Made by a program: the position numbers and the translations under genes. Of a stretch of 64,000 nt of DNA, positions 57,531-63,451 are shown in pieces. The number at the start of each line of letters is the position of its first letter. The first letter of the stretch is position 1. This DNA is from a virus (taxonomy: Duplodnaviria > Caudoviricetes), in the IMG/VR virus record IMGVR_UViG_3300029288_000159, positions 7,498-71,497 of that record; one strand, 5' to 3'. The notes under the pieces are model-generated. The model searched no databases and was not told the DNA's origin. It worked only from the letters and a program-made list of their open reading frames with translations.

Positions 57531-57865
57531 TATTGACCGGGAGGACGACGATGAACATCGAGGCAAAGAAGGAAGAACTCAAAGAACGGGACCTGTTGTG
57601 TTTAGTGTGCAAATGCGCAAAGCTCTACAATGTAACCGTCGATGAGATACTCGGCCGACGACGGCTGCATCGCATTTGCCATGCCCGCCACGTCATTTGG
57701 GCGACGCTCTACAACCGGGGTCATTGGAGTCTGCCGCAACTCGGCTTACTATTCGAGCGTGACCACACGACCATTCTGAACGGCGTCAATCGTATCTCCG
57801 GAGAAGAGATTGACGCCATCGATCCGCCCCCCCCTGACTCTCAACCCGCAGTACTCGCATCATGA
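57527..57865 (+). CDS. DnaA C-terminal-like HTH protein
   Basis: VTVDEILGRRR...HARH...SLPQLGLLFERDHTTILNGV. Confidence 0.8.
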   Translation: MILTGRTTMNIEAKKEELKERDLLCLVCKCAKLYNVTVDEILGRRRLHRICHARHVIWATLYNRGHWSLPQLGLLFERDHTTILNGVNRISGEEIDAIDPPPPDSQPAVLAS

Positions 57866-58740
57866 GCGCCATATCCAAGATCGAATGGACGGACGCAACG
57901 TGGAACCCAGTTCGCGGCTGCGCGATGGTTTCCGCCGGATGCGAGCATTGCTACGCGATGCGGCAGGCGCATCGATTCTCCGGCAAGGGGCAACCATACG
58001 AAGGACTCACTCGATTGGATATGCGTTGGGTGGGCCGTGCCCGCTTCGTTCCCGAGATGCTGCCTGTTCCGATGCGATGGGAGTCTCCTAGGCGAATCTT
58101 CGTTAACTCGATGAGTGATCTGTTCCACGGGGACATCACGAATCGACAGATCAGCGCTGTGTTCGCTGTGATGGCTGCATGTCCGCAACATACATTCATC
58201 GTCCTCACCAAACGCCCAAACGGAATGAATCGATGGTACGAGTTGCACCCGTTCGGCGGATACGCTTCGAAGGCAGTGCTCGATTACCGGAAGGAATTCA
58301 CTGACAGACAGTTGGATCGATTGACTCACGTTGGGTCATGGCCGCTCCCGAATGTATGGCTGGGTGTGAGTTGTGAAGATCAGTCAATGCTAGCGAAGCG
58401 CGTCTTGCCCCTTTTGCAAACGCCAGCAGCGATCCGCTGGGTGAGCTTGGAGCCACTACTTGCACCAATTAGATTCATTGCTAATCGATTCGATCCATTG
58501 GTTGGGATGGATATTGAGCGTCCCAACATCAGATCGAAGATCGATTGGGTTGTGGTCGGCGCTGAGAGCGGCCCAGGCGCGCGCCCAATGAACGAAGACT
58601 GGGTGCGCAGTATCCGAGATGAGTGCAAGGAGGTCGGCACCCCATTCTTTTACAAGCAGAAACTCGAGAACGGTCGCAAGGTTTCCTTGCCGTTCCTAGA
58701 TGGTTTGCGCTATGCGGAGTATCCAGGAGGACACAGATGA
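57862..58740 (+). CDS. Gp37/Gp68 (DUF5131) family protein
   Basis: SKIEWTDATWNPVRGC..VSAGCEHCYA...IFVNSMSDLFH...LTKRP...WVSLEPLL. Confidence 0.92.
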   Translation: MSAISKIEWTDATWNPVRGCAMVSAGCEHCYAMRQAHRFSGKGQPYEGLTRLDMRWVGRARFVPEMLPVPMRWESPRRIFVNSMSDLFHGDITNRQISAVFAVMAACPQHTFIVLTKRPNGMNRWYELHPFGGYASKAVLDYRKEFTDRQLDRLTHVGSWPLPNVWLGVSCEDQSMLAKRVLPLLQTPAAIRWVSLEPLLAPIRFIANRFDPLVGMDIERPNIRSKIDWVVVGAESGPGARPMNEDWVRSIRDECKEVGTPFFYKQKLENGRKVSLPFLDGLRYAEYPGGHR

Positions 58741-59801
58741 ACACTGAGAGTTCACAGATAGCAATTGCGGAGGAGTGTGAGCGAATCAAGAGCATGCTCC
58801 TCGAGAAGAATGCATCGTACGGGAATAGTGCACTCGAGCCGATACACGTCTTCGCGCCTAAGGCGGATGCACAGGCCGGGATCCGCTTTCGTCTAGACGA
58901 CAAGCTTACGAGAATCGCAAAGGGCGATGGTCGCTTCGACGAAGACACCATCGGCGACATCATCGGGTATCTCGTCCTGCTTCACATCGCAGAGCGAGCA
59001 TCTCCGGTCACCGAGACAGCTGCCCAATGTCCGCCCGTAGCGAGCAATCACGATGACGAGGTGGAGGTTCTCCACGAAGAGATAGAGCGGTTGACGAATA
59101 CACTGCACACGGCCGAATCTAATGCAGGGTTCCTTCTGCAATCGCGCAACTCGGAGATCGAGAGACTGAAACAGGATTTAGATCAAGCCAACCAATTCAC
59201 TGCATCCGCCAATGCAGCGGCCTTCTCGATGAAGAAGAAGCTCGATGAACAGTTGAAAGCAGAAAAGGAATTGCAGCGGAAAGCCTGCGAGGACTGTCAG
59301 CGGGAATGCGATGAGGCACGCAAGGAGCGTGATGAAGCTCGTGCAGCCATCGCCGAGTTGCACTCGCAAGCGTCGGTGAAGATAACGTCGCTTGAAGCGT
59401 GTGCGTCTAAGCTCGAAGCGGAGCGGGATGAAGCTATTGTGCAGCGCGATGCATTCCGCAACAATACTGCACTGGAGAAGGCAGTCTCAGAGCGCAACGA
59501 TGCATGGGTGCAGCTAAATGAACTAAGCGCGTCGCTCGTGAAGGCAATCGCACAGGAGAAGCACATCTCCGAGGACTACAATTCATGTTTCCGCCGCATC
59601 GTCCGAGAGCGCGACATCGCAATCAAAGAACGCAATGCTCTCATCCAGAAAGCACATACTGAACAAGAGCAAGTACAAGAGTGCATCATGAGAGCCGAAC
59701 GAGCCGAGCTGAGAGCAGCCAATGCAGAGCGACGATTCGCAGAGGCACAGGCAAGCATCAAAGTATTGAAGCAAGATACTGACAGCTCCATGGGGCCCTA
59801 A
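58737..59801 (+). CDS. Long coiled-coil protein with N-terminal EKNASYGNSAL domain
   Basis: Heptad-rich C-terminal two-thirds. Confidence 0.65.
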   Translation: MNTESSQIAIAEECERIKSMLLEKNASYGNSALEPIHVFAPKADAQAGIRFRLDDKLTRIAKGDGRFDEDTIGDIIGYLVLLHIAERASPVTETAAQCPPVASNHDDEVEVLHEEIERLTNTLHTAESNAGFLLQSRNSEIERLKQDLDQANQFTASANAAAFSMKKKLDEQLKAEKELQRKACEDCQRECDEARKERDEARAAIAELHSQASVKITSLEACASKLEAERDEAIVQRDAFRNNTALEKAVSERNDAWVQLNELSASLVKAIAQEKHISEDYNSCFRRIVRERDIAIKERNALIQKAHTEQEQVQECIMRAERAELRAANAERRFAEAQASIKVLKQDTDSSMGP

Positions 59802-60361
59802 TGAAAACAAGTATCATTGGGATTGACGGCGGATTCAGTTCGGTCGGCTGGGCAGTGCTCGAGTTGACTGCAACCACCGAAACCGAAACGCTCGTCAACA
59901 TGGGCGTGATTCGAACAGCAAAATCAGACAAGAAACTCAACGTGCTGAGTTCGTCGGACAGCTTCCGACGATGCCAGGAAATCGCCGTGGTGCTCGGCAA
60001 GGTGCTTGACCTGTACAGCCCCCGGGTGGTGGCGATCGAATCGCTCAGCCTCCCCCGCAACGCCGGAGTGAGCGCCAAGATTGGCATGGGCTACGGCGTC
60101 CTAGCGGCCCTCCTAAGCGCTCGGAGCCTGCCGATGGCCCAGGTGTCACCCCAAGGGGTCAAGAAGACTCTGGCGGGCTCCCAGAGCGCAAGCAAGGCAT
60201 GTGTCCAGGAGGCACTCGCGAAGAGGTTCGGGTCCCCATTTCAGAAAAGACTGGAAGAATTTAACAAGACTGTAAGGGAACACCCGGCGGATGCCCTCGC
60301 AGTGGCGGTTGCAGCCCTCACTTCTGAGGTGGTCAAGCTCGCTCGGAGTATGGCCGCGTGA
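59801..60361 (+). CDS. ruvC: RuvC-like Holliday junction resolvase
   Basis: IIGIDGG...VVAIE...EHPADALAVA with an intact acidic triad. Confidence 0.85.
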   Translation: MKTSIIGIDGGFSSVGWAVLELTATTETETLVNMGVIRTAKSDKKLNVLSSSDSFRRCQEIAVVLGKVLDLYSPRVVAIESLSLPRNAGVSAKIGMGYGVLAALLSARSLPMAQVSPQGVKKTLAGSQSASKACVQEALAKRFGSPFQKRLEEFNKTVREHPADALAVAVAALTSEVVKLARSMAA

Positions 60362-60628
60362 TGTCCGCCGCCCTTGCAAGCGCCCCCCTTGGCGCCCGCC
60401 TCCGCCCTTATCGCTCCGCTCGGGGCGCTGCTGCCCTCGGGCGGGGCCATGTGCCTGCCCAAATCGGCCGGTGGAAGATGCGTGTCGATTGCAAGGCCGG
60501 TAATTGGACCGGATATGCAATAAGAAAAGCAGATGGCACCTGGCAGATGTCTGTAACCATAAACGGAGAGATGCGTGTAGTGCGAGTCTACCCGACCCTG
60601 CAAAGACAGAACGTGAAGAGGATTATCA

Positions 60629-60907
60629 ATGAAAGAAAAGGGTAAAGTAGTAGAAGGTATCTGGTCCGGGCCGGCACCCATCTGCCCGCTCTGTCACCAG
60701 AGACAAGACATTCATCACAATGCGCTAAGTTGTATGCAACGCCAGATTGATGGGATGGCCGAGAGTATTAATAAGATGCGCGAAGTTATAACTGCGAATG
60801 TTCTAGTGATAACTACGCTTGACCAGCGCATCGCGTTGCTCTCGGCCGATCTCGACGACGAGCGGGACCGGGCAGAAAAAAGAGTGGCACTCAGCGAAAG
60901 TGGTTGA
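60629..60907 (+). CDS. Small zinc/coiled-coil protein
   Basis: CPLC...H...C followed by heptads. Confidence 0.5.
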   Translation: MKEKGKVVEGIWSGPAPICPLCHQRQDIHHNALSCMQRQIDGMAESINKMREVITANVLVITTLDQRIALLSADLDDERDRAEKRVALSESG

Positions 60908-60949
60908 AATCTCTTGCACCCTCCCGGGGTCGCGTGGTAGGCCGGGAGA

Positions 60950-61129
60950 GTGAGCAAAAAAGCTGGACCCATACGAACCACGCAGAAGAATCTTCGGCTC
61001 GCACCAGATGAGATGCGCAGAGCCGAGAAGGTTATGAACCATTACGGATTGGACCTTCAGGCTCTTCTTCGAATGCTCGTTAAGCAGGAGCATGATAGGC
61101 TTTTCTCACATGGCAAGGAGGCAAGGTGA
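60950..61129 (+). CDS. RelB/DinJ-like ribbon-helix-helix protein (59 aa), absent from the ORF track
   Basis: Manual translation MSKKAGPIRTTQKNLRLAPDEMRRAEKVMNHYGLDLQALLRMLVKQEHDRLFSHGKEAR; GGGAGA RBS; GTGA overlap with the Cas12f start. Confidence 0.75.
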   Translation: MSKKAGPIRTTQKNLRLAPDEMRRAEKVMNHYGLDLQALLRMLVKQEHDRLFSHGKEAR

Positions 61130-62550
61130 AGGTGAAGAAGAAGAAGAAGAAGGAGGAGGAAAAGGAGAAGGAGACGGGCACAGTTGTTCGTGTGCGGGCT
61201 GTGCGAGTGGAGATTGCAAAGCCTCTCGACATCCAGTGGCGAGAGCTGGACGATCTGTTGCGAGATAGACGAGCCGTAATGCATCGGCTGCTCAATGCAG
61301 GCGTGCTTCACATTGCTTCTCAGCGCTGGGCCGGGAATGAGAAACCGCGCGCGCTTGAAGCCATCAAGGCAGAATTGTCGTCTTGGCAAACGTGGTGCGC
61401 TGAGATGGGCGCCAAGACGAAGGATGAGAAAGAACGCATCAGACACGAACGTAGAGCGACGATGACATTGGCGTCGTCAATCACAGATGCACTGCAACAG
61501 CGGTGCGTTGACGCAGATCAACGGTGGCGCAAAAACAAGGGCAACGCCAGATTGCCTACCGCAAAACGTGGGGCTCCAATCTTCATCCGTGATGGTGGTT
61601 GGACGCTTGAGTCGGACAAGAACGGTTGGATCCTGTCGATGAGACTTGAGGGTGTCACCCCAACGAATCATCGTCCAGGCAAGGTCCGCGTCGCTTTGCG
61701 ACCGTCATCCGGAAAGCATCATGGCATTCTGCAACAGATGGTGAAAGGCTCAGTCAAGATAGGCAATTGCCAAGTTGTACTCGATGAGTCGACTGGCAAA
61801 TGGTACGCCATCCTAGCGTTCACTGAGGAGTTGAATCGAGCGGCCCCACCACGAGACGGTACCAAGACACTTATCGTCCATAGAGGGCAACGCAACTTTA
61901 TGTATGCCCTGTGCACCGACGGGCGAACGCGTATATTGCGCGGCAACAAGTTTGCGGCTCAACGATTGCATCTGAAGAGGAGAGCGGAGGCTTTCAAGCG
62001 TGTGTCAGCGTTCGAGCGTGGTGCCGGAGCCAAGGGGCATGGCACCAGACGACGGTACGAAACTCATGATGCTTTGGATCGGAAGCTCAAACGAGTCGTT
62101 CATACATATTGTCAGACTTCGGCTGCCTGGGTGTTCAAGGCCGCCAAGGATCTTGGCTGTGGACGCATCCTCATCGAGGACTATGGCGGTATAGAACAGA
62201 GCGACGAACGAGCTGAGCGCAGATTCTTGGATCACTTCCCGTACTACCAACTGGGGACGGCAATCAAGTGGGTCTGCAAGCGAGAGCAACTGGAGCTGTT
62301 GGAAGGTCCGGCAGCATTCATCTCGCAAACGTGTCCACGATGCAAGCATCAGGATGCTCGTCAACACAACACCCGAACCGGAGTGTTCCATTGCATCAAC
62401 CCAGACTGCGGATTCGACCGACCAGCAGACTGGGTAGCAGCATTCAATCAAGGTATCGCTTTTGGCATTGACATGAGTGAGATAAAGAAGATACTTGCTG
62501 CTCAAGAGAGGGTAGCGGCCGAAATCAAAAAGAAGGCAAAGGCGGCATGA
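61126..62550 (+). CDS. cas12f: Cas12f1-like type V effector with altered RuvC (H252-E351-D435); probably nuclease-deficient
   Basis: N-terminal RVEIAKPLDIQWRELDDLLR, GAKGHG, GCGRILIEDY, RFLDHFPYYQL, SQTCPRC...CINPDC...ADWVAAFN follow the AsCas12f1 layout as recalled; RuvC-I reads LIVHRG instead of xGIDLG; adjacent to the array. Confidence 0.85.
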   Translation: MKVKKKKKKEEEKEKETGTVVRVRAVRVEIAKPLDIQWRELDDLLRDRRAVMHRLLNAGVLHIASQRWAGNEKPRALEAIKAELSSWQTWCAEMGAKTKDEKERIRHERRATMTLASSITDALQQRCVDADQRWRKNKGNARLPTAKRGAPIFIRDGGWTLESDKNGWILSMRLEGVTPTNHRPGKVRVALRPSSGKHHGILQQMVKGSVKIGNCQVVLDESTGKWYAILAFTEELNRAAPPRDGTKTLIVHRGQRNFMYALCTDGRTRILRGNKFAAQRLHLKRRAEAFKRVSAFERGAGAKGHGTRRRYETHDALDRKLKRVVHTYCQTSAAWVFKAAKDLGCGRILIEDYGGIEQSDERAERRFLDHFPYYQLGTAIKWVCKREQLELLEGPAAFISQTCPRCKHQDARQHNTRTGVFHCINPDCGFDRPADWVAAFNQGIAFGIDMSEIKKILAAQERVAAEIKKKAKAA

Positions 62551-62555
62551 CGAGC

Positions 62556-62714
62556 AGGGCCGCGAATGCAGTTGTGATGGGTGTGCTGCCGCGACTCCGC
62601 GCGGCAAACGCGAGACCACGTTACGTGCTCGCGAACCTGGGGACACTCAGGACGATGGGGGATGCCCCATCAGCACCATGACCGCCCACCACACCTGCAT
62701 TCGCGGCCCTTCTG
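62556..62714 (+). ncRNA. tracrRNA-like structured RNA
   Basis: 16-bp perfect closing stem (62556-62571 with 62695-62710) enclosing four hairpins; 62671-62683 is complementary to repeat nt 21-33 (one G-U), 62684-62689 to repeat nt 7-12. Confidence 0.8.
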
Positions 62715-62735
62715 CGTTTGGCAAAAGGAGATAAC

Positions 62736-63362
62736 ATGTCATTCAACATGAAAGAGGCCACCCTGGAGCAAATCGTCGCTGAGGCTCTCGCTCTGAGAGC
62801 TAAAGCAGAGCGGTCGGCCGCTGAATATCTGGCGTTTCTGTATCAGTTCGAGTTGGAGCGTGAGGACCTGTGGAAGACTGCAGGTGTTGCAACCTACAGT
62901 CAATTCCTGAATTCGCATTCGCTGGTGAATACGTCGAGATACGACGTGTTCCGTAAAGGTGTGGAGAAGCTGGGCAGTGTGGCTCAGGCTATCGAGATAG
63001 GCGAGCCATCCACTGCAGAGGCAGGCAAGATCAAGGACCCCCTTGCTGTGCCAGTGTTTGAGGGGATCACGAAAGCGTGGATAGATATTCACGATGGCAC
63101 CGTCCCAAGTGAACAGACGGCAGAGTGCCATCGCGCGCAGGCCGAACCAAAGAAGTCTCCAGTGTTCTTCCGGCAGTCAGAACTTCATGAGTTGCGCGCA
63201 AAAGTGCAACAGTTGGCAGCCAGGAACAGGCAGCTGGAAGCCGACTTGAGAACGAAGCAAAAGACGATATACGAACTGCAAGCCAAGCTGGAAGGAATAG
63301 CTGCCAAGAAGGCTGCCAAGAGAGCGGCGCGAGTCGAAAATTCAGAAGGCGCGAGCGTCTAG
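62736..63362 (+). CDS. Unknown accessory protein (208 aa) between tracrRNA and array
   Basis: AAGGAG RBS; helical N-terminus with LWKTAGVATYSQFL; C-terminal basic coiled coil. Confidence 0.75.
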   Translation: MSFNMKEATLEQIVAEALALRAKAERSAAEYLAFLYQFELEREDLWKTAGVATYSQFLNSHSLVNTSRYDVFRKGVEKLGSVAQAIEIGEPSTAEAGKIKDPLAVPVFEGITKAWIDIHDGTVPSEQTAECHRAQAEPKKSPVFFRQSELHELRAKVQQLAARNRQLEADLRTKQKTIYELQAKLEGIAAKKAAKRAARVENSEGASV

Positions 63363-63451
63363 CAATTTGGATTCGGAATGCGGGCGTGGATGGAGACCCG
63401 CTCGCAATCCGGGCCGCAGGTCCTTGAAATCATTGTGTCTGTGGAGGGGCT
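63363..63451 (+). promoter_or_regulatory. CRISPR leader (short)
   Basis: Non-coding stretch before repeat 1 containing CTCGCAA and TTGAAAT, ending in GGGGCT. Confidence 0.5.

What the first reader, a model, noticed from the sequence alone, without database searches (positions are those of the whole stretch)
62736..63362. Unknown accessory protein inserted between tracrRNA and leader
Seen: 208-aa ORF with a strong RBS inside the CRISPR unit, with a helical N-terminus (LWKTAGVATYSQFL) and a basic coiled-coil C-terminus. Known: dead type V effectors often depend on a partner (TniQ/TnsC for Cas12k, a sigma factor for dCas12f). Inference: candidate effector recruited by the RNP, or a nucleoid-type silencer. 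It could also be an unrelated phage gene that landed here.
Basis: inference. Interest (0 to 1): 0.78.

Follow-up and report, generated by a model that had tools for sequence, protein, structure and literature searches.

The report
Conserved partner protein of phage Cas12f
The 208-residue gene between the guide-RNA region and the CRISPR array of this phage's miniature Cas12f-like system is real, and its unnamed protein family lies beside the same altered-nuclease Cas12f in 19 of 21 related loci, so it is a genuine CRISPR-linked partner, probably a dimeric nucleic-acid binder, of untested function.

Summary
Observation confirmed. Window 62736-63362 (+) is a 208-aa ORF with an AAGGAG ribosome-binding site. 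It lies 18 nt after a tracrRNA-like structured RNA and 90 nt before a CRISPR array that runs across the ends of a circular 71.5-kb phage genome.

The protein is not an orphan. A full HMMER scan finds 155 clusters of ~180-210-aa relatives, none in Pfam, NCBIfam, PADLOC or the PDB.

In 19 of 21 informative loci, a family member lies within ~1.3 kb of a Cas12f-like gene and its array. In 20 of the 21 the RuvC-I Asp is replaced by His (Arg in L045). Gene order varies and the flanking phage genes differ. The two proteins co-diverge (Mantel r 0.67, p <= 2e-4). The "unrelated phage gene" reading is rejected.

The AlphaFold model (pLDDT 96) shows three parts:
- a helical N-domain that weakly resembles DUF3102, DUF222 and the ParB DNA-binding domain
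- a five-heptad leucine zipper
- a basic tail

A 2023 survey (PMC10691335) mentions a subtype V-U24 with a noncanonical RuvC-I site and an associated HTH protein of unknown function. This is probably the same system, so the association is likely already noted, but it is uncharacterised.

The scan has not found this family on other DNA.

The parts
61126..62550 (+). Cas12f-like effector gene (474 aa) with a His252-Glu351-Asp435 RuvC triad
   Evidence: PF07282, E 8e-10. PADLOC Cas12u3 and Cas12f profiles match almost full-length, E 5e-36 and 4e-35. A profile of 23 homologs hits solved Cas12f1 structures (8j12, 7wju, 8dzj) at E ~1e-54, with His aligned to the Asp of GIDLG. H252 is invariant in the 23 homologs.
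62468..62495 (+). sigma-70-like promoter match (TTGACA-16-GATACT) inside the 3' end of the cas12f-like gene; could drive tracrRNA, ORF208 and array
   Evidence: Consensus scan, 10 of 12 matches, though the count is no higher than in shuffles. Weak; inference only.
62549..62718 (+). tracrRNA-like structured RNA; anti-repeat at 62670-62717
   Evidence: MFE -104.6 kcal/mol, z -7.3. Duplex with the repeat is -41.3 kcal/mol against -32.3 +/- 3.0 for shuffles and -29.2 for the minus strand.
62725..62730 (+). ribosome-binding site AAGGAG, 5 nt before the ATG
   Evidence: read from the sequence
62736..63362 (+). ORF208, the accessory gene (208 aa plus stop)
   Evidence: ORF list. 155 homologous clusters at E<=1e-3, 65 at E<=1e-10. 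AF2 pLDDT 96.3.
62736..63158 (+). N-terminal helical domain (residues 1-141), weakly like DUF3102, DUF222 and the ParB DNA-binding domain; near-invariant R21, E39, G50, R68, Y69, F72, G75, G89, P124
   Evidence: Domain model pLDDT 96.4. BFVD DUF3102 protein, prob 0.99, TMq 0.57, E 0.075. ESM Atlas DUF222, TM 0.48 over residues 2-142. ParB/Spo0J/SopB DNA-binding domains, Z 5.3/4.9/4.2. ESM features DUF3102 0.92. Conservation.
63171..63290 (+). leucine-zipper coiled coil (residues ~146-185, five heptads)
   Evidence: Long helix 142-206. Hydrophobic a/d positions 150, 153, 157, 160, 164, 167, 171, 174, 178, 181, 185, with L153 at 97% and L160 at 94%. bZIP, GCN4 and other coiled-coil hits only.
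63291..63359 (+). basic Lys/Arg/Ala-rich tail (residues 186-208)
   Evidence: Family mean 25% K+R and 7% D+E in this region; C-terminal part pI 10.2.
63363..63451 (+). leader between the ORF208 stop and the first repeat
   Evidence: read from the sequence; no terminator-like site between the ORF and the array
63452..64000 (+). CRISPR array: 8 of 22 repeats (36 nt). It continues across the record ends to G000:C1:1-1015
   Evidence: Repeat families. 149-nt terminal overlap and 22 repeats on the joined sequence.

Best explanation
ORF208 is a bona fide CRISPR-associated accessory protein of a phage-borne clade of Cas12f-like effectors in which the RuvC-I aspartate is replaced by histidine. This clade is probably the 'V-U24' group noted in 2023. 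The protein has a ParB-HTH/DUF3102-like helical domain, a leucine zipper that should make it a dimer, and a basic tail. My preferred mechanism has four steps. (1) The gene is transcribed with the tracrRNA and pre-crRNA. (2) The protein dimerises through the zipper. (3) It acts at DNA targets together with the dimeric Cas12f-like RNP. (4) There it binds flanking or displaced DNA and so strengthens or extends a binding-based block (silencing or roadblock) on host or rival-element DNA, instead of cleavage by a canonical RuvC site. Shown here: the gene is real, the family exists, it is tightly and anciently linked to this effector and its array, and the fold is helical with a zipper. Inferred: dimerisation, nucleic-acid binding, contact with Cas12f, and any effect on targets. 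My confidence that it is a functional component of the CRISPR module is ~0.9. The figure below (0.4) is for the acts-at-the-target mechanism.
For: Linkage, starting from the effector: loci fetched with Cas12f-like homologs of 26-57% identity carry an ORF208-family gene 0-1.3 kb away. These are L008, L011, L012; L021, L022; L023, L025, L026, L027; L033, L039, L040, L041, L045; and L024, where the gene lies across the ends of a terminally repeated 111.6-kb phage record.

Linkage, starting from the ORF family: members at about 31-33% identity have a PF07282 gene just upstream (P0040; P0045; P0174).

Context: gene order differs between loci (cas-ORF-array, cas-array-ORF, cas-array-ORF-array, ORF-cas-array). 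Flanking genes also differ (DnaB/DnaG, UvrD-intein, integrase, RuvC/DUF5131). So linkage is maintained, not merely inherited synteny.

Co-divergence over 16 pairs: Mantel r 0.67, p<=2e-4.

In L008 and L014 the gene sits inside the array, so there its mRNA would be part of the pre-crRNA transcript.

The His-Glu-Asp triad is kept in every Cas12f-like gene examined but one, L045, which fits a changed output that could need a partner.

Fold.
Against: There is no evidence of physical contact. The complex predictor was unavailable.

Two loci with the same His-type effector and an array have no family member within 4 kb (L038 = L034, and L043). So the effector may work without it, or the gene lies elsewhere in those genomes.

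The DNA-binding assignment rests on weak structural and feature similarity only (Z ~5, TM ~0.5). The Pfam DUF3102 and DUF222 models do not hit.

No protospacer was found for any spacer tried, so what the system targets is unknown.

A conserved His-Glu-Asp site could still be catalytic, which would remove the need for a silencing partner.
Confidence: 0.4

Rival explanations
1. ORF208 is a dedicated transcriptional regulator of its own locus. In this reading it is an HTH dimer that binds an operator in the leader, the promoter or the repeat DNA. It would tune expression of the cas12f-like gene, the tracrRNA and the array during infection, as Aca-type proteins do for anti-CRISPR operons.
For: The domain is HTH-like with a dimerisation zipper. 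The gene always lies next to the array or leader rather than being fused to the effector. Two loci work, or at least persist, without it, as expected for a regulator more than for an obligate subunit. The 2023 survey also calls the V-U24 partner simply an HTH protein.
Against: At ~200 aa with a 40-residue zipper and a basic tail, it is larger than typical phage operon regulators. Repeats and leaders differ greatly between loci, while the putative recognition-helix residues R68, Y69 and F72 are ~90% conserved. That fits a constant ligand better than locus-specific operators. No palindromic operator was found in the leader.
Confidence: 0.3
2. ORF208 is a guide-RNA biogenesis or RNP-assembly factor. 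It would bind the repeat:anti-repeat duplex or the highly structured tracrRNA and help to process or load crRNAs from irregular arrays that have no Cas1-Cas2.
For: The gene abuts the tracrRNA-like RNA or lies inside the array. The tail is basic. The arrays are unusually irregular, with spacers of 15-49 nt and degenerate 5' repeat halves, so processing may need help. The 3' repeat core (GGTGTTGGAG-like) is shared between several loci, which could be a constant ligand.
Against: There is no RNA-binding fold or nuclease motif. Known Cas12f1 needs no such factor (established knowledge of V-F1 systems, and solved complexes such as 7wju and 8j12 listed). Repeat cores in more distant loci are unrelated.
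Confidence: 0.15
3. ORF208 is an unrelated phage gene, for example a DUF3102-type replication or partition protein that uses the repeats as a centromere. In this reading it merely travels next to the CRISPR locus.
For: There are weak ParB, SopB and plasmid-partition resemblances. Direct-repeat arrays next to ParB-like genes are the classical centromere layout (textbook knowledge of F sopC and P1 parS).
Against: Adjacency holds in 19 of 21 loci, in different phage backgrounds and in four gene orders, with co-divergence. No ParA-type ATPase appears in any neighbourhood. The repeats pair with an anti-repeat next to a Cas12f homolog. tblastn finds no family member in 50,697 deposited phage genomes, so this is not a general phage housekeeping gene.
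Confidence: 0.05

Closest known systems
Subtype V-U24 of Altae-Tran et al., PNAS 2023 (PMC10691335)
   Same: [quoted passage not shown] Here RuvC-I is His instead of Asp, and the partner has an HTH-like domain.
   Different: Identity with V-U24 could not be verified. The supplementary figure and sequences are not held, and no other paper mentions V-U24. The paper gives no fold, family size, gene-order or co-divergence data, no phage context and no function.
dCas12f-sigmaE RNA-guided transcription (PMC13472631)
   Same: A Cas12f-derived effector with an altered nuclease site is genetically coupled to a small DNA- or RNAP-directed partner protein.
   Different: In that system all RuvC motifs are lost, the array is reduced to a single guide, the partner is an ECF sigma factor, and the hosts are Bacteroidetes chromosomes. 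Here Glu and Asp are kept, the arrays have up to 22 repeats, the partner is an unrelated helical zipper protein, and the loci are in phages.
Cas12m (type V-M)
   Same: A compact Cas12 with a non-canonical RuvC site that protects by binding and transcriptional silencing rather than dsDNA cleavage (abstract of PMC10442227).
   Different: Cas12m acts alone, with no conserved accessory gene. The effector here is closest to Cas12f1 structures.
Canonical Cas12f1 (type V-F1)
   Same: Full-length homology to solved Cas12f1 (E ~1e-54), a zinc ribbon, a tracrRNA and an array.
   Different: RuvC-I is Asp to His, invariant in this clade. There is an extra conserved partner gene. The system is phage-borne. 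The arrays are irregular.
DUF3102 / DUF222 / ParB-type helical DNA-binding domains
   Same: These are the best, though weak, structural and language-model neighbours of residues 1-141.
   Different: There is no HMM match to PF11300 or PF02720, no ParB N-terminal domain and no HNH domain. The C-terminal zipper and basic tail are specific to this family.

Membership tests
Type V-F (Cas12f) CRISPR-Cas, as the context of the accessory gene | Effector homologous to Cas12f1 over its full length | tested here: met
   Profile A2 against PDB Cas12f1 chains 8j12, 8dzj and 7wju, E ~1e-54, profile positions 7-428. PADLOC Cas12f, E 4e-35.
Type V-F (Cas12f) CRISPR-Cas, as the context of the accessory gene | Canonical Asp-Glu-Asp RuvC triad | tested here: not met
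   His252 aligns with the catalytic Asp of GIDLG. His is invariant in 23 homologs and is kept in all loci but one.
Type V-F (Cas12f) CRISPR-Cas, as the context of the accessory gene | CRISPR array plus tracrRNA with an anti-repeat | tested here: met
   22 repeats. Structured RNA, z -7.3. Anti-repeat duplex -41.3 kcal/mol. No RNA data.
Subtype V-U24 (PMC10691335) | Noncanonical RuvC-I active site | tested here: met
Subtype V-U24 (PMC10691335) | [quoted passage not shown] | tested here: inconclusive
   The association with ORF208 is strong (19 of 21 loci). Its HTH character rests on weak fold matches only.
Subtype V-U24 (PMC10691335) | Effector sequence falls in the published V-U24 cluster | not testable with these tools
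   Supplementary data are not held.
DUF3102 (PF11300) | Match to the Pfam model above its cut-off | tested here: not met
   No hit at E<=1 in the genome. No hit for seven N-domains at E<=10.
DUF3102 (PF11300) | Shared fold | tested here: inconclusive
   BFVD DUF3102 proteins, TMq 0.57 and 0.43, E 0.075 and 2.2. ESM feature score 0.92.
DUF222 (PF02720) | Match to the Pfam model above its cut-off | tested here: not met
   No hit at E<=1.
DUF222 (PF02720) | Shared fold | tested here: inconclusive
   ESM Atlas clusters, TM 0.48 by query, 134 residues aligned, rmsd 3.8.
ParB / SopB centromere-binding proteins | HTH DNA-binding domain fold | tested here: inconclusive
   6s6h_B Z 5.3 (96 aligned), 1vz0_A Z 4.9, 3mkw_B Z 4.2. 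All are below the level the tool calls reliable for helical proteins.
ParB / SopB centromere-binding proteins | ParB N-terminal (CTPase) domain and a ParA partner gene | tested here: not met
   No Pfam domain in 70 members. No ParA-type gene in any neighbourhood listed.
bZIP-type leucine zipper | Heptad Leu repeat | tested here: met
   a/d pattern over residues 150-185. bZIP_1 hits in 6 of 70 members, all below the cut-off.
bZIP-type leucine zipper | Basic DNA-contact region immediately N-terminal to the zipper | tested here: not met
   The basic stretch is C-terminal to the zipper.

The most novel reading that the evidence does not exclude
The ORF208 family is the missing output module of a two-component, phage-encoded RNA-guided system. 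In this reading, a Cas12f-like RNP with a remodelled His-Glu-Asp site finds DNA. The zipper-dimer partner then binds it and converts recognition into a non-cleaving outcome, such as silencing, roadblock or recruitment of a host factor. Phages would use this against host defences or rival elements. That would be a new accessory-protein class for type V systems and a new compact programmable DNA-binding pair.
Probability: 0.35. Interest if true: 0.8.

Novelty: new member of a known kind. Interest (0 to 1): 0.62.

Why it matters
Partner proteins are what turn nuclease-altered Cas12 and TnpB relatives into new tools and new biology. Examples are TniQ/TnsC for Cas12k and sigma-E for dCas12f. Here a partner family with no Pfam, NCBIfam, PADLOC or PDB match is linked to a phage-only Cas12f clade with a conserved His-Glu-Asp site.

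The literature appears to hold one sentence on it and no function. This work adds a family of 155 clusters, a high-confidence fold, a set of 21 loci with four gene orders, and two natural loci that lack the gene. Together these make the question directly testable: is the protein an effector partner, a regulator or an RNA chaperone?

If it binds the RNP, it would define a new small (about 680 aa in total) programmable DNA-binding pair. It would also show what phages do with nuclease-altered CRISPR systems.

Tried and rejected
- Word-indexed protein search found only the query itself. The 'orphan' impression was an artefact of that index, because the full HMMER scan found 155 clusters.
- The search for related loci with ORF-family alignments A1 and A3 failed: no stretch was conserved enough. 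With the single Cas12f-like protein it found nothing in viral contigs.
- Pfam, PHROGs, NCBIfam and PADLOC gave only coiled-coil noise for ORF208.
- The PDB sequence profile gave only coiled coils.
- Foldseek against the PDB gave no match at E<=0.001 for the whole protein or the N-domain.
- VIA-align on the whole model was swamped by the long helix.
- Complex prediction (Cas12f-like plus ORF208) was not available, so nothing was folded.
- Spacer targets: no self-match longer than 14 nt in the phage genome. The array has no match in 50,697 phage records. Four spacers have no exact match in viral or genome collections.
- The upstream 59-aa RHH-like ORF (60950-61129) is not conserved in related loci, so I do not count it as part of the conserved module.
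- The Thermus-phage Cas12r system is an active nuclease system with no evident relation.
- No operator-like palindrome was found in the leader.
- L038 and L043 could not be searched beyond the fetched 9 kb.

Full report
**What is there.** The window is bases 7498-71497 of a 71,497-bp virus record rated 97% complete. Its last 149 nt repeat its first 149 nt inside a CRISPR array. The genome is therefore circular or circularly permuted, and the array of 22 repeats of 36 nt runs across the record ends.

Upstream of the finding lies a 474-aa Cas12f-like gene at 61126-62550 (PF07282). It matches the PADLOC Cas12u3 and Cas12f profiles at E 5e-36 and 4e-35. A profile of 23 homologs matches solved Cas12f1 structures at E ~1e-54. 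In that alignment His252 takes the place of the catalytic Asp of the GIDLG motif, while Glu351 and Asp435 are kept. His252 is invariant in the 23 homologs.

The 185-nt gap after the stop codon folds into a very stable RNA (-104.6 kcal/mol, z -7.3). Its 3' part (62670-62717) pairs with the CRISPR repeat better than shuffled controls do (-41.3 against -32.3 +/- 3.0 kcal/mol). Eighteen nucleotides later comes the ORF208 start codon, preceded by AAGGAG at a 5-nt spacing. The ORF ends at 63362 and the first repeat starts at 63452. No terminator-like site separates the tracrRNA, the ORF and the array.

**The protein is real and belongs to a family.** The word-indexed search returned only the query. 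A full HMMER scan of 1.84 billion cluster representatives found 155 clusters at E<=1e-3 and 65 at E<=1e-10. Nearly all are 175-210 aa and match end to end.

An alignment of 70 members shows near-invariant R21, E39, G50, R68, Y69, F72, G75, G89 and P124, and the zipper leucines L153 and L160. None of the 70 members hits a Pfam family apart from coiled-coil noise. NCBIfam, PADLOC and PHROGs give nothing either.

**Fold.** With the family alignment, AlphaFold2 gives pLDDT 96.3. The model has eight helices in residues 10-136 and one long helix at 142-206. The N-domain alone gives pLDDT 96.4.

There is no strong PDB neighbour. The best partial matches that cover most of the domain are ParB, Spo0J and SopB DNA-binding domains, at Z 5.3, 4.9 and 4.2. 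These are below what the tool regards as reliable for helical proteins.

Among predicted structures, the nearest are:
- phage DUF3102 proteins in BFVD (prob 0.99, TMq 0.57, E 0.075)
- DUF222 clusters in the ESM Atlas (TM 0.48 over residues 2-142)
- DUF3102 and plasmid-partition clusters by language-model features (0.92-0.93)

The Pfam models of DUF3102 and DUF222 do not hit. I therefore call the N-domain "ParB-HTH/DUF3102-like" as a resemblance, not a membership.

Residues 150-185 have a clean a/d heptad pattern over five heptads. The last 23 residues are Lys/Arg/Ala-rich, and the C-terminal part has pI 10.2.

**Linkage to the effector.** This is the decisive evidence.
- Starting from Cas12f-like homologs of 26-57% identity, profile searches of the fetched loci find an ORF208-family gene on the same strand, 0-1.3 kb from the effector. 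The loci are L008, L011, L012; L021, L022; L023, L025, L026, L027; and L033, L039, L040, L041, L045. In L024 the partner lies across the ends of a terminally repeated 111.6-kb phage record.
- Starting from ORF-family members at about 31-33% identity, a PF07282 gene lies just upstream: P0040, P0045 = L019 and P0174 = L028/L029.
- Short contigs that carry only the ORF end in CRISPR repeats (L014-L016), as expected if assemblies break in arrays.
- Counting this window, 19 of 21 informative, non-redundant loci have the pair.
- The two exceptions are L038 (= L034) and L043. Both have the His-type effector and an array, followed by unrelated membrane or LysM-like genes.

Gene order varies: cas-ORF-array in this window, L025 and L026; cas-array-ORF in L011, L012, L019, L022 and L028; cas-array-ORF-array in L008 and L014; and ORF-cas-array in L027 and L039. 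Flanking genes also differ: DnaB and DnaG, a UvrD with an intein, an integrase, or RuvC and DUF5131.

Pairwise identities of the two proteins correlate over 16 loci (Mantel r 0.67, p<=2e-4). Of the 21 informative loci, 20 have His at RuvC-I with Glu and Asp retained. The most distant one, L045, has Arg.

Linkage that survives rearrangement, in different phage backbones and over effector divergence down to ~20% identity, is what a functional module predicts. Hitch-hiking does not predict it.

**What it does.** Nothing here tests function directly.

From anatomy I favour, at ~0.4, a dimeric nucleic-acid-binding partner that acts with the dimeric Cas12f-like RNP at its DNA targets and supports a non-cleaving outcome. 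The main rival, at ~0.3, is a dedicated regulator of the locus. The two loci that lack the gene favour this rival. The near-invariant putative recognition-helix residues, set against very different repeats and leaders, count against it. A guide-RNA biogenesis or assembly role (~0.15) fits the gene's position next to the tracrRNA or inside arrays, and the irregular arrays. A partition or housekeeping role is nearly excluded: there is no ParA gene, and tblastn finds no homolog in 50,697 deposited phage genomes.

[quoted passage not shown] That description fits this module. I estimate ~0.65 that it is the same system. The supplementary data are not held, and no other paper in the library mentions V-U24.

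Searches for phage dCas12f systems or accessory proteins found only two related cases: the sigma-E-coupled dCas12f of Bacteroidetes (PMC13472631) and Cas12m. Both are analogous in logic but different in components.

I therefore class the finding as a new member of a kind that has been noted but never characterised. The new contributions are the family definition, the fold, the co-occurrence and co-divergence statistics, the phage context and the natural minus-partner loci.

**Verdict.** Interest is moderate to high for CRISPR specialists (0.62).

Noticed in passing
window 63452-64000 and G000:C1:1-1015 (locus L002): The array has 22 repeats, and the stretches between them are very uneven (1-49 nt by the 36-nt repeat match). 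Several repeats have degenerate 5' halves. One two-unit block is duplicated: spacers 12 and 17 are near-identical, and each is preceded by the same degenerate repeat. There is no cas1 or cas2 in the fetched neighbourhoods, so the arrays seem to grow by duplication or recombination rather than by canonical adaptation.
   Followed up: partly
window 61879-61881 (His252 codon); loci L008-L044: The RuvC-I His-Arg-Gly motif, with RuvC-II Glu and RuvC-III Asp retained, is invariant in this whole Cas12f-like clade. It looks like a selected, remodelled site rather than a dead one. The most distant partner-bearing relative (L045) has Arg there.
   Followed up: partly
L008:7427-9218 and L014:94-1149: In these relatives the ORF208 homolog sits in the middle of the repeat array, so its mRNA would be flanked by crRNA units within one precursor transcript.
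   Followed up: no
L038:3908-7138 and L043:3956-7611: These are two loci with a His-type Cas12f-like gene and an array but no ORF208 homolog within 4 kb. The gene after the array encodes a LysM-like (L038) or other protein with a C-terminal membrane helix. They are natural 'minus-partner' cases for comparison.
   Followed up: partly
L027 = L042 (IMGVR_UViG_3300033233_000001, 297,749 bp): A huge-phage contig carries the same module in reversed order (partner gene first, then the Cas12f-like gene, then the array), with only 30% effector identity to this window.
   Followed up: no
window 60950-61129: The 59-aa RHH/NikA-like ORF just upstream of the cas12f-like gene has no detectable homolog at the same position in 12 related loci. 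It is probably not part of the conserved module.
   Followed up: yes
window 57862-58740 and 59801-60361: The locus sits at the end of a replication and recombination block (DUF5131/Gp37-like protein, RuvC-like resolvase) and just before the record's start. This is a typical accessory-gene position between early and packaging modules.
   Followed up: no
window 62468-62495: The only sigma-70-like promoter match in 60500-63600 lies inside the 3' end of the cas12f-like gene, facing the tracrRNA, ORF208 and the array. The count is no higher than in shuffles.
   Followed up: no
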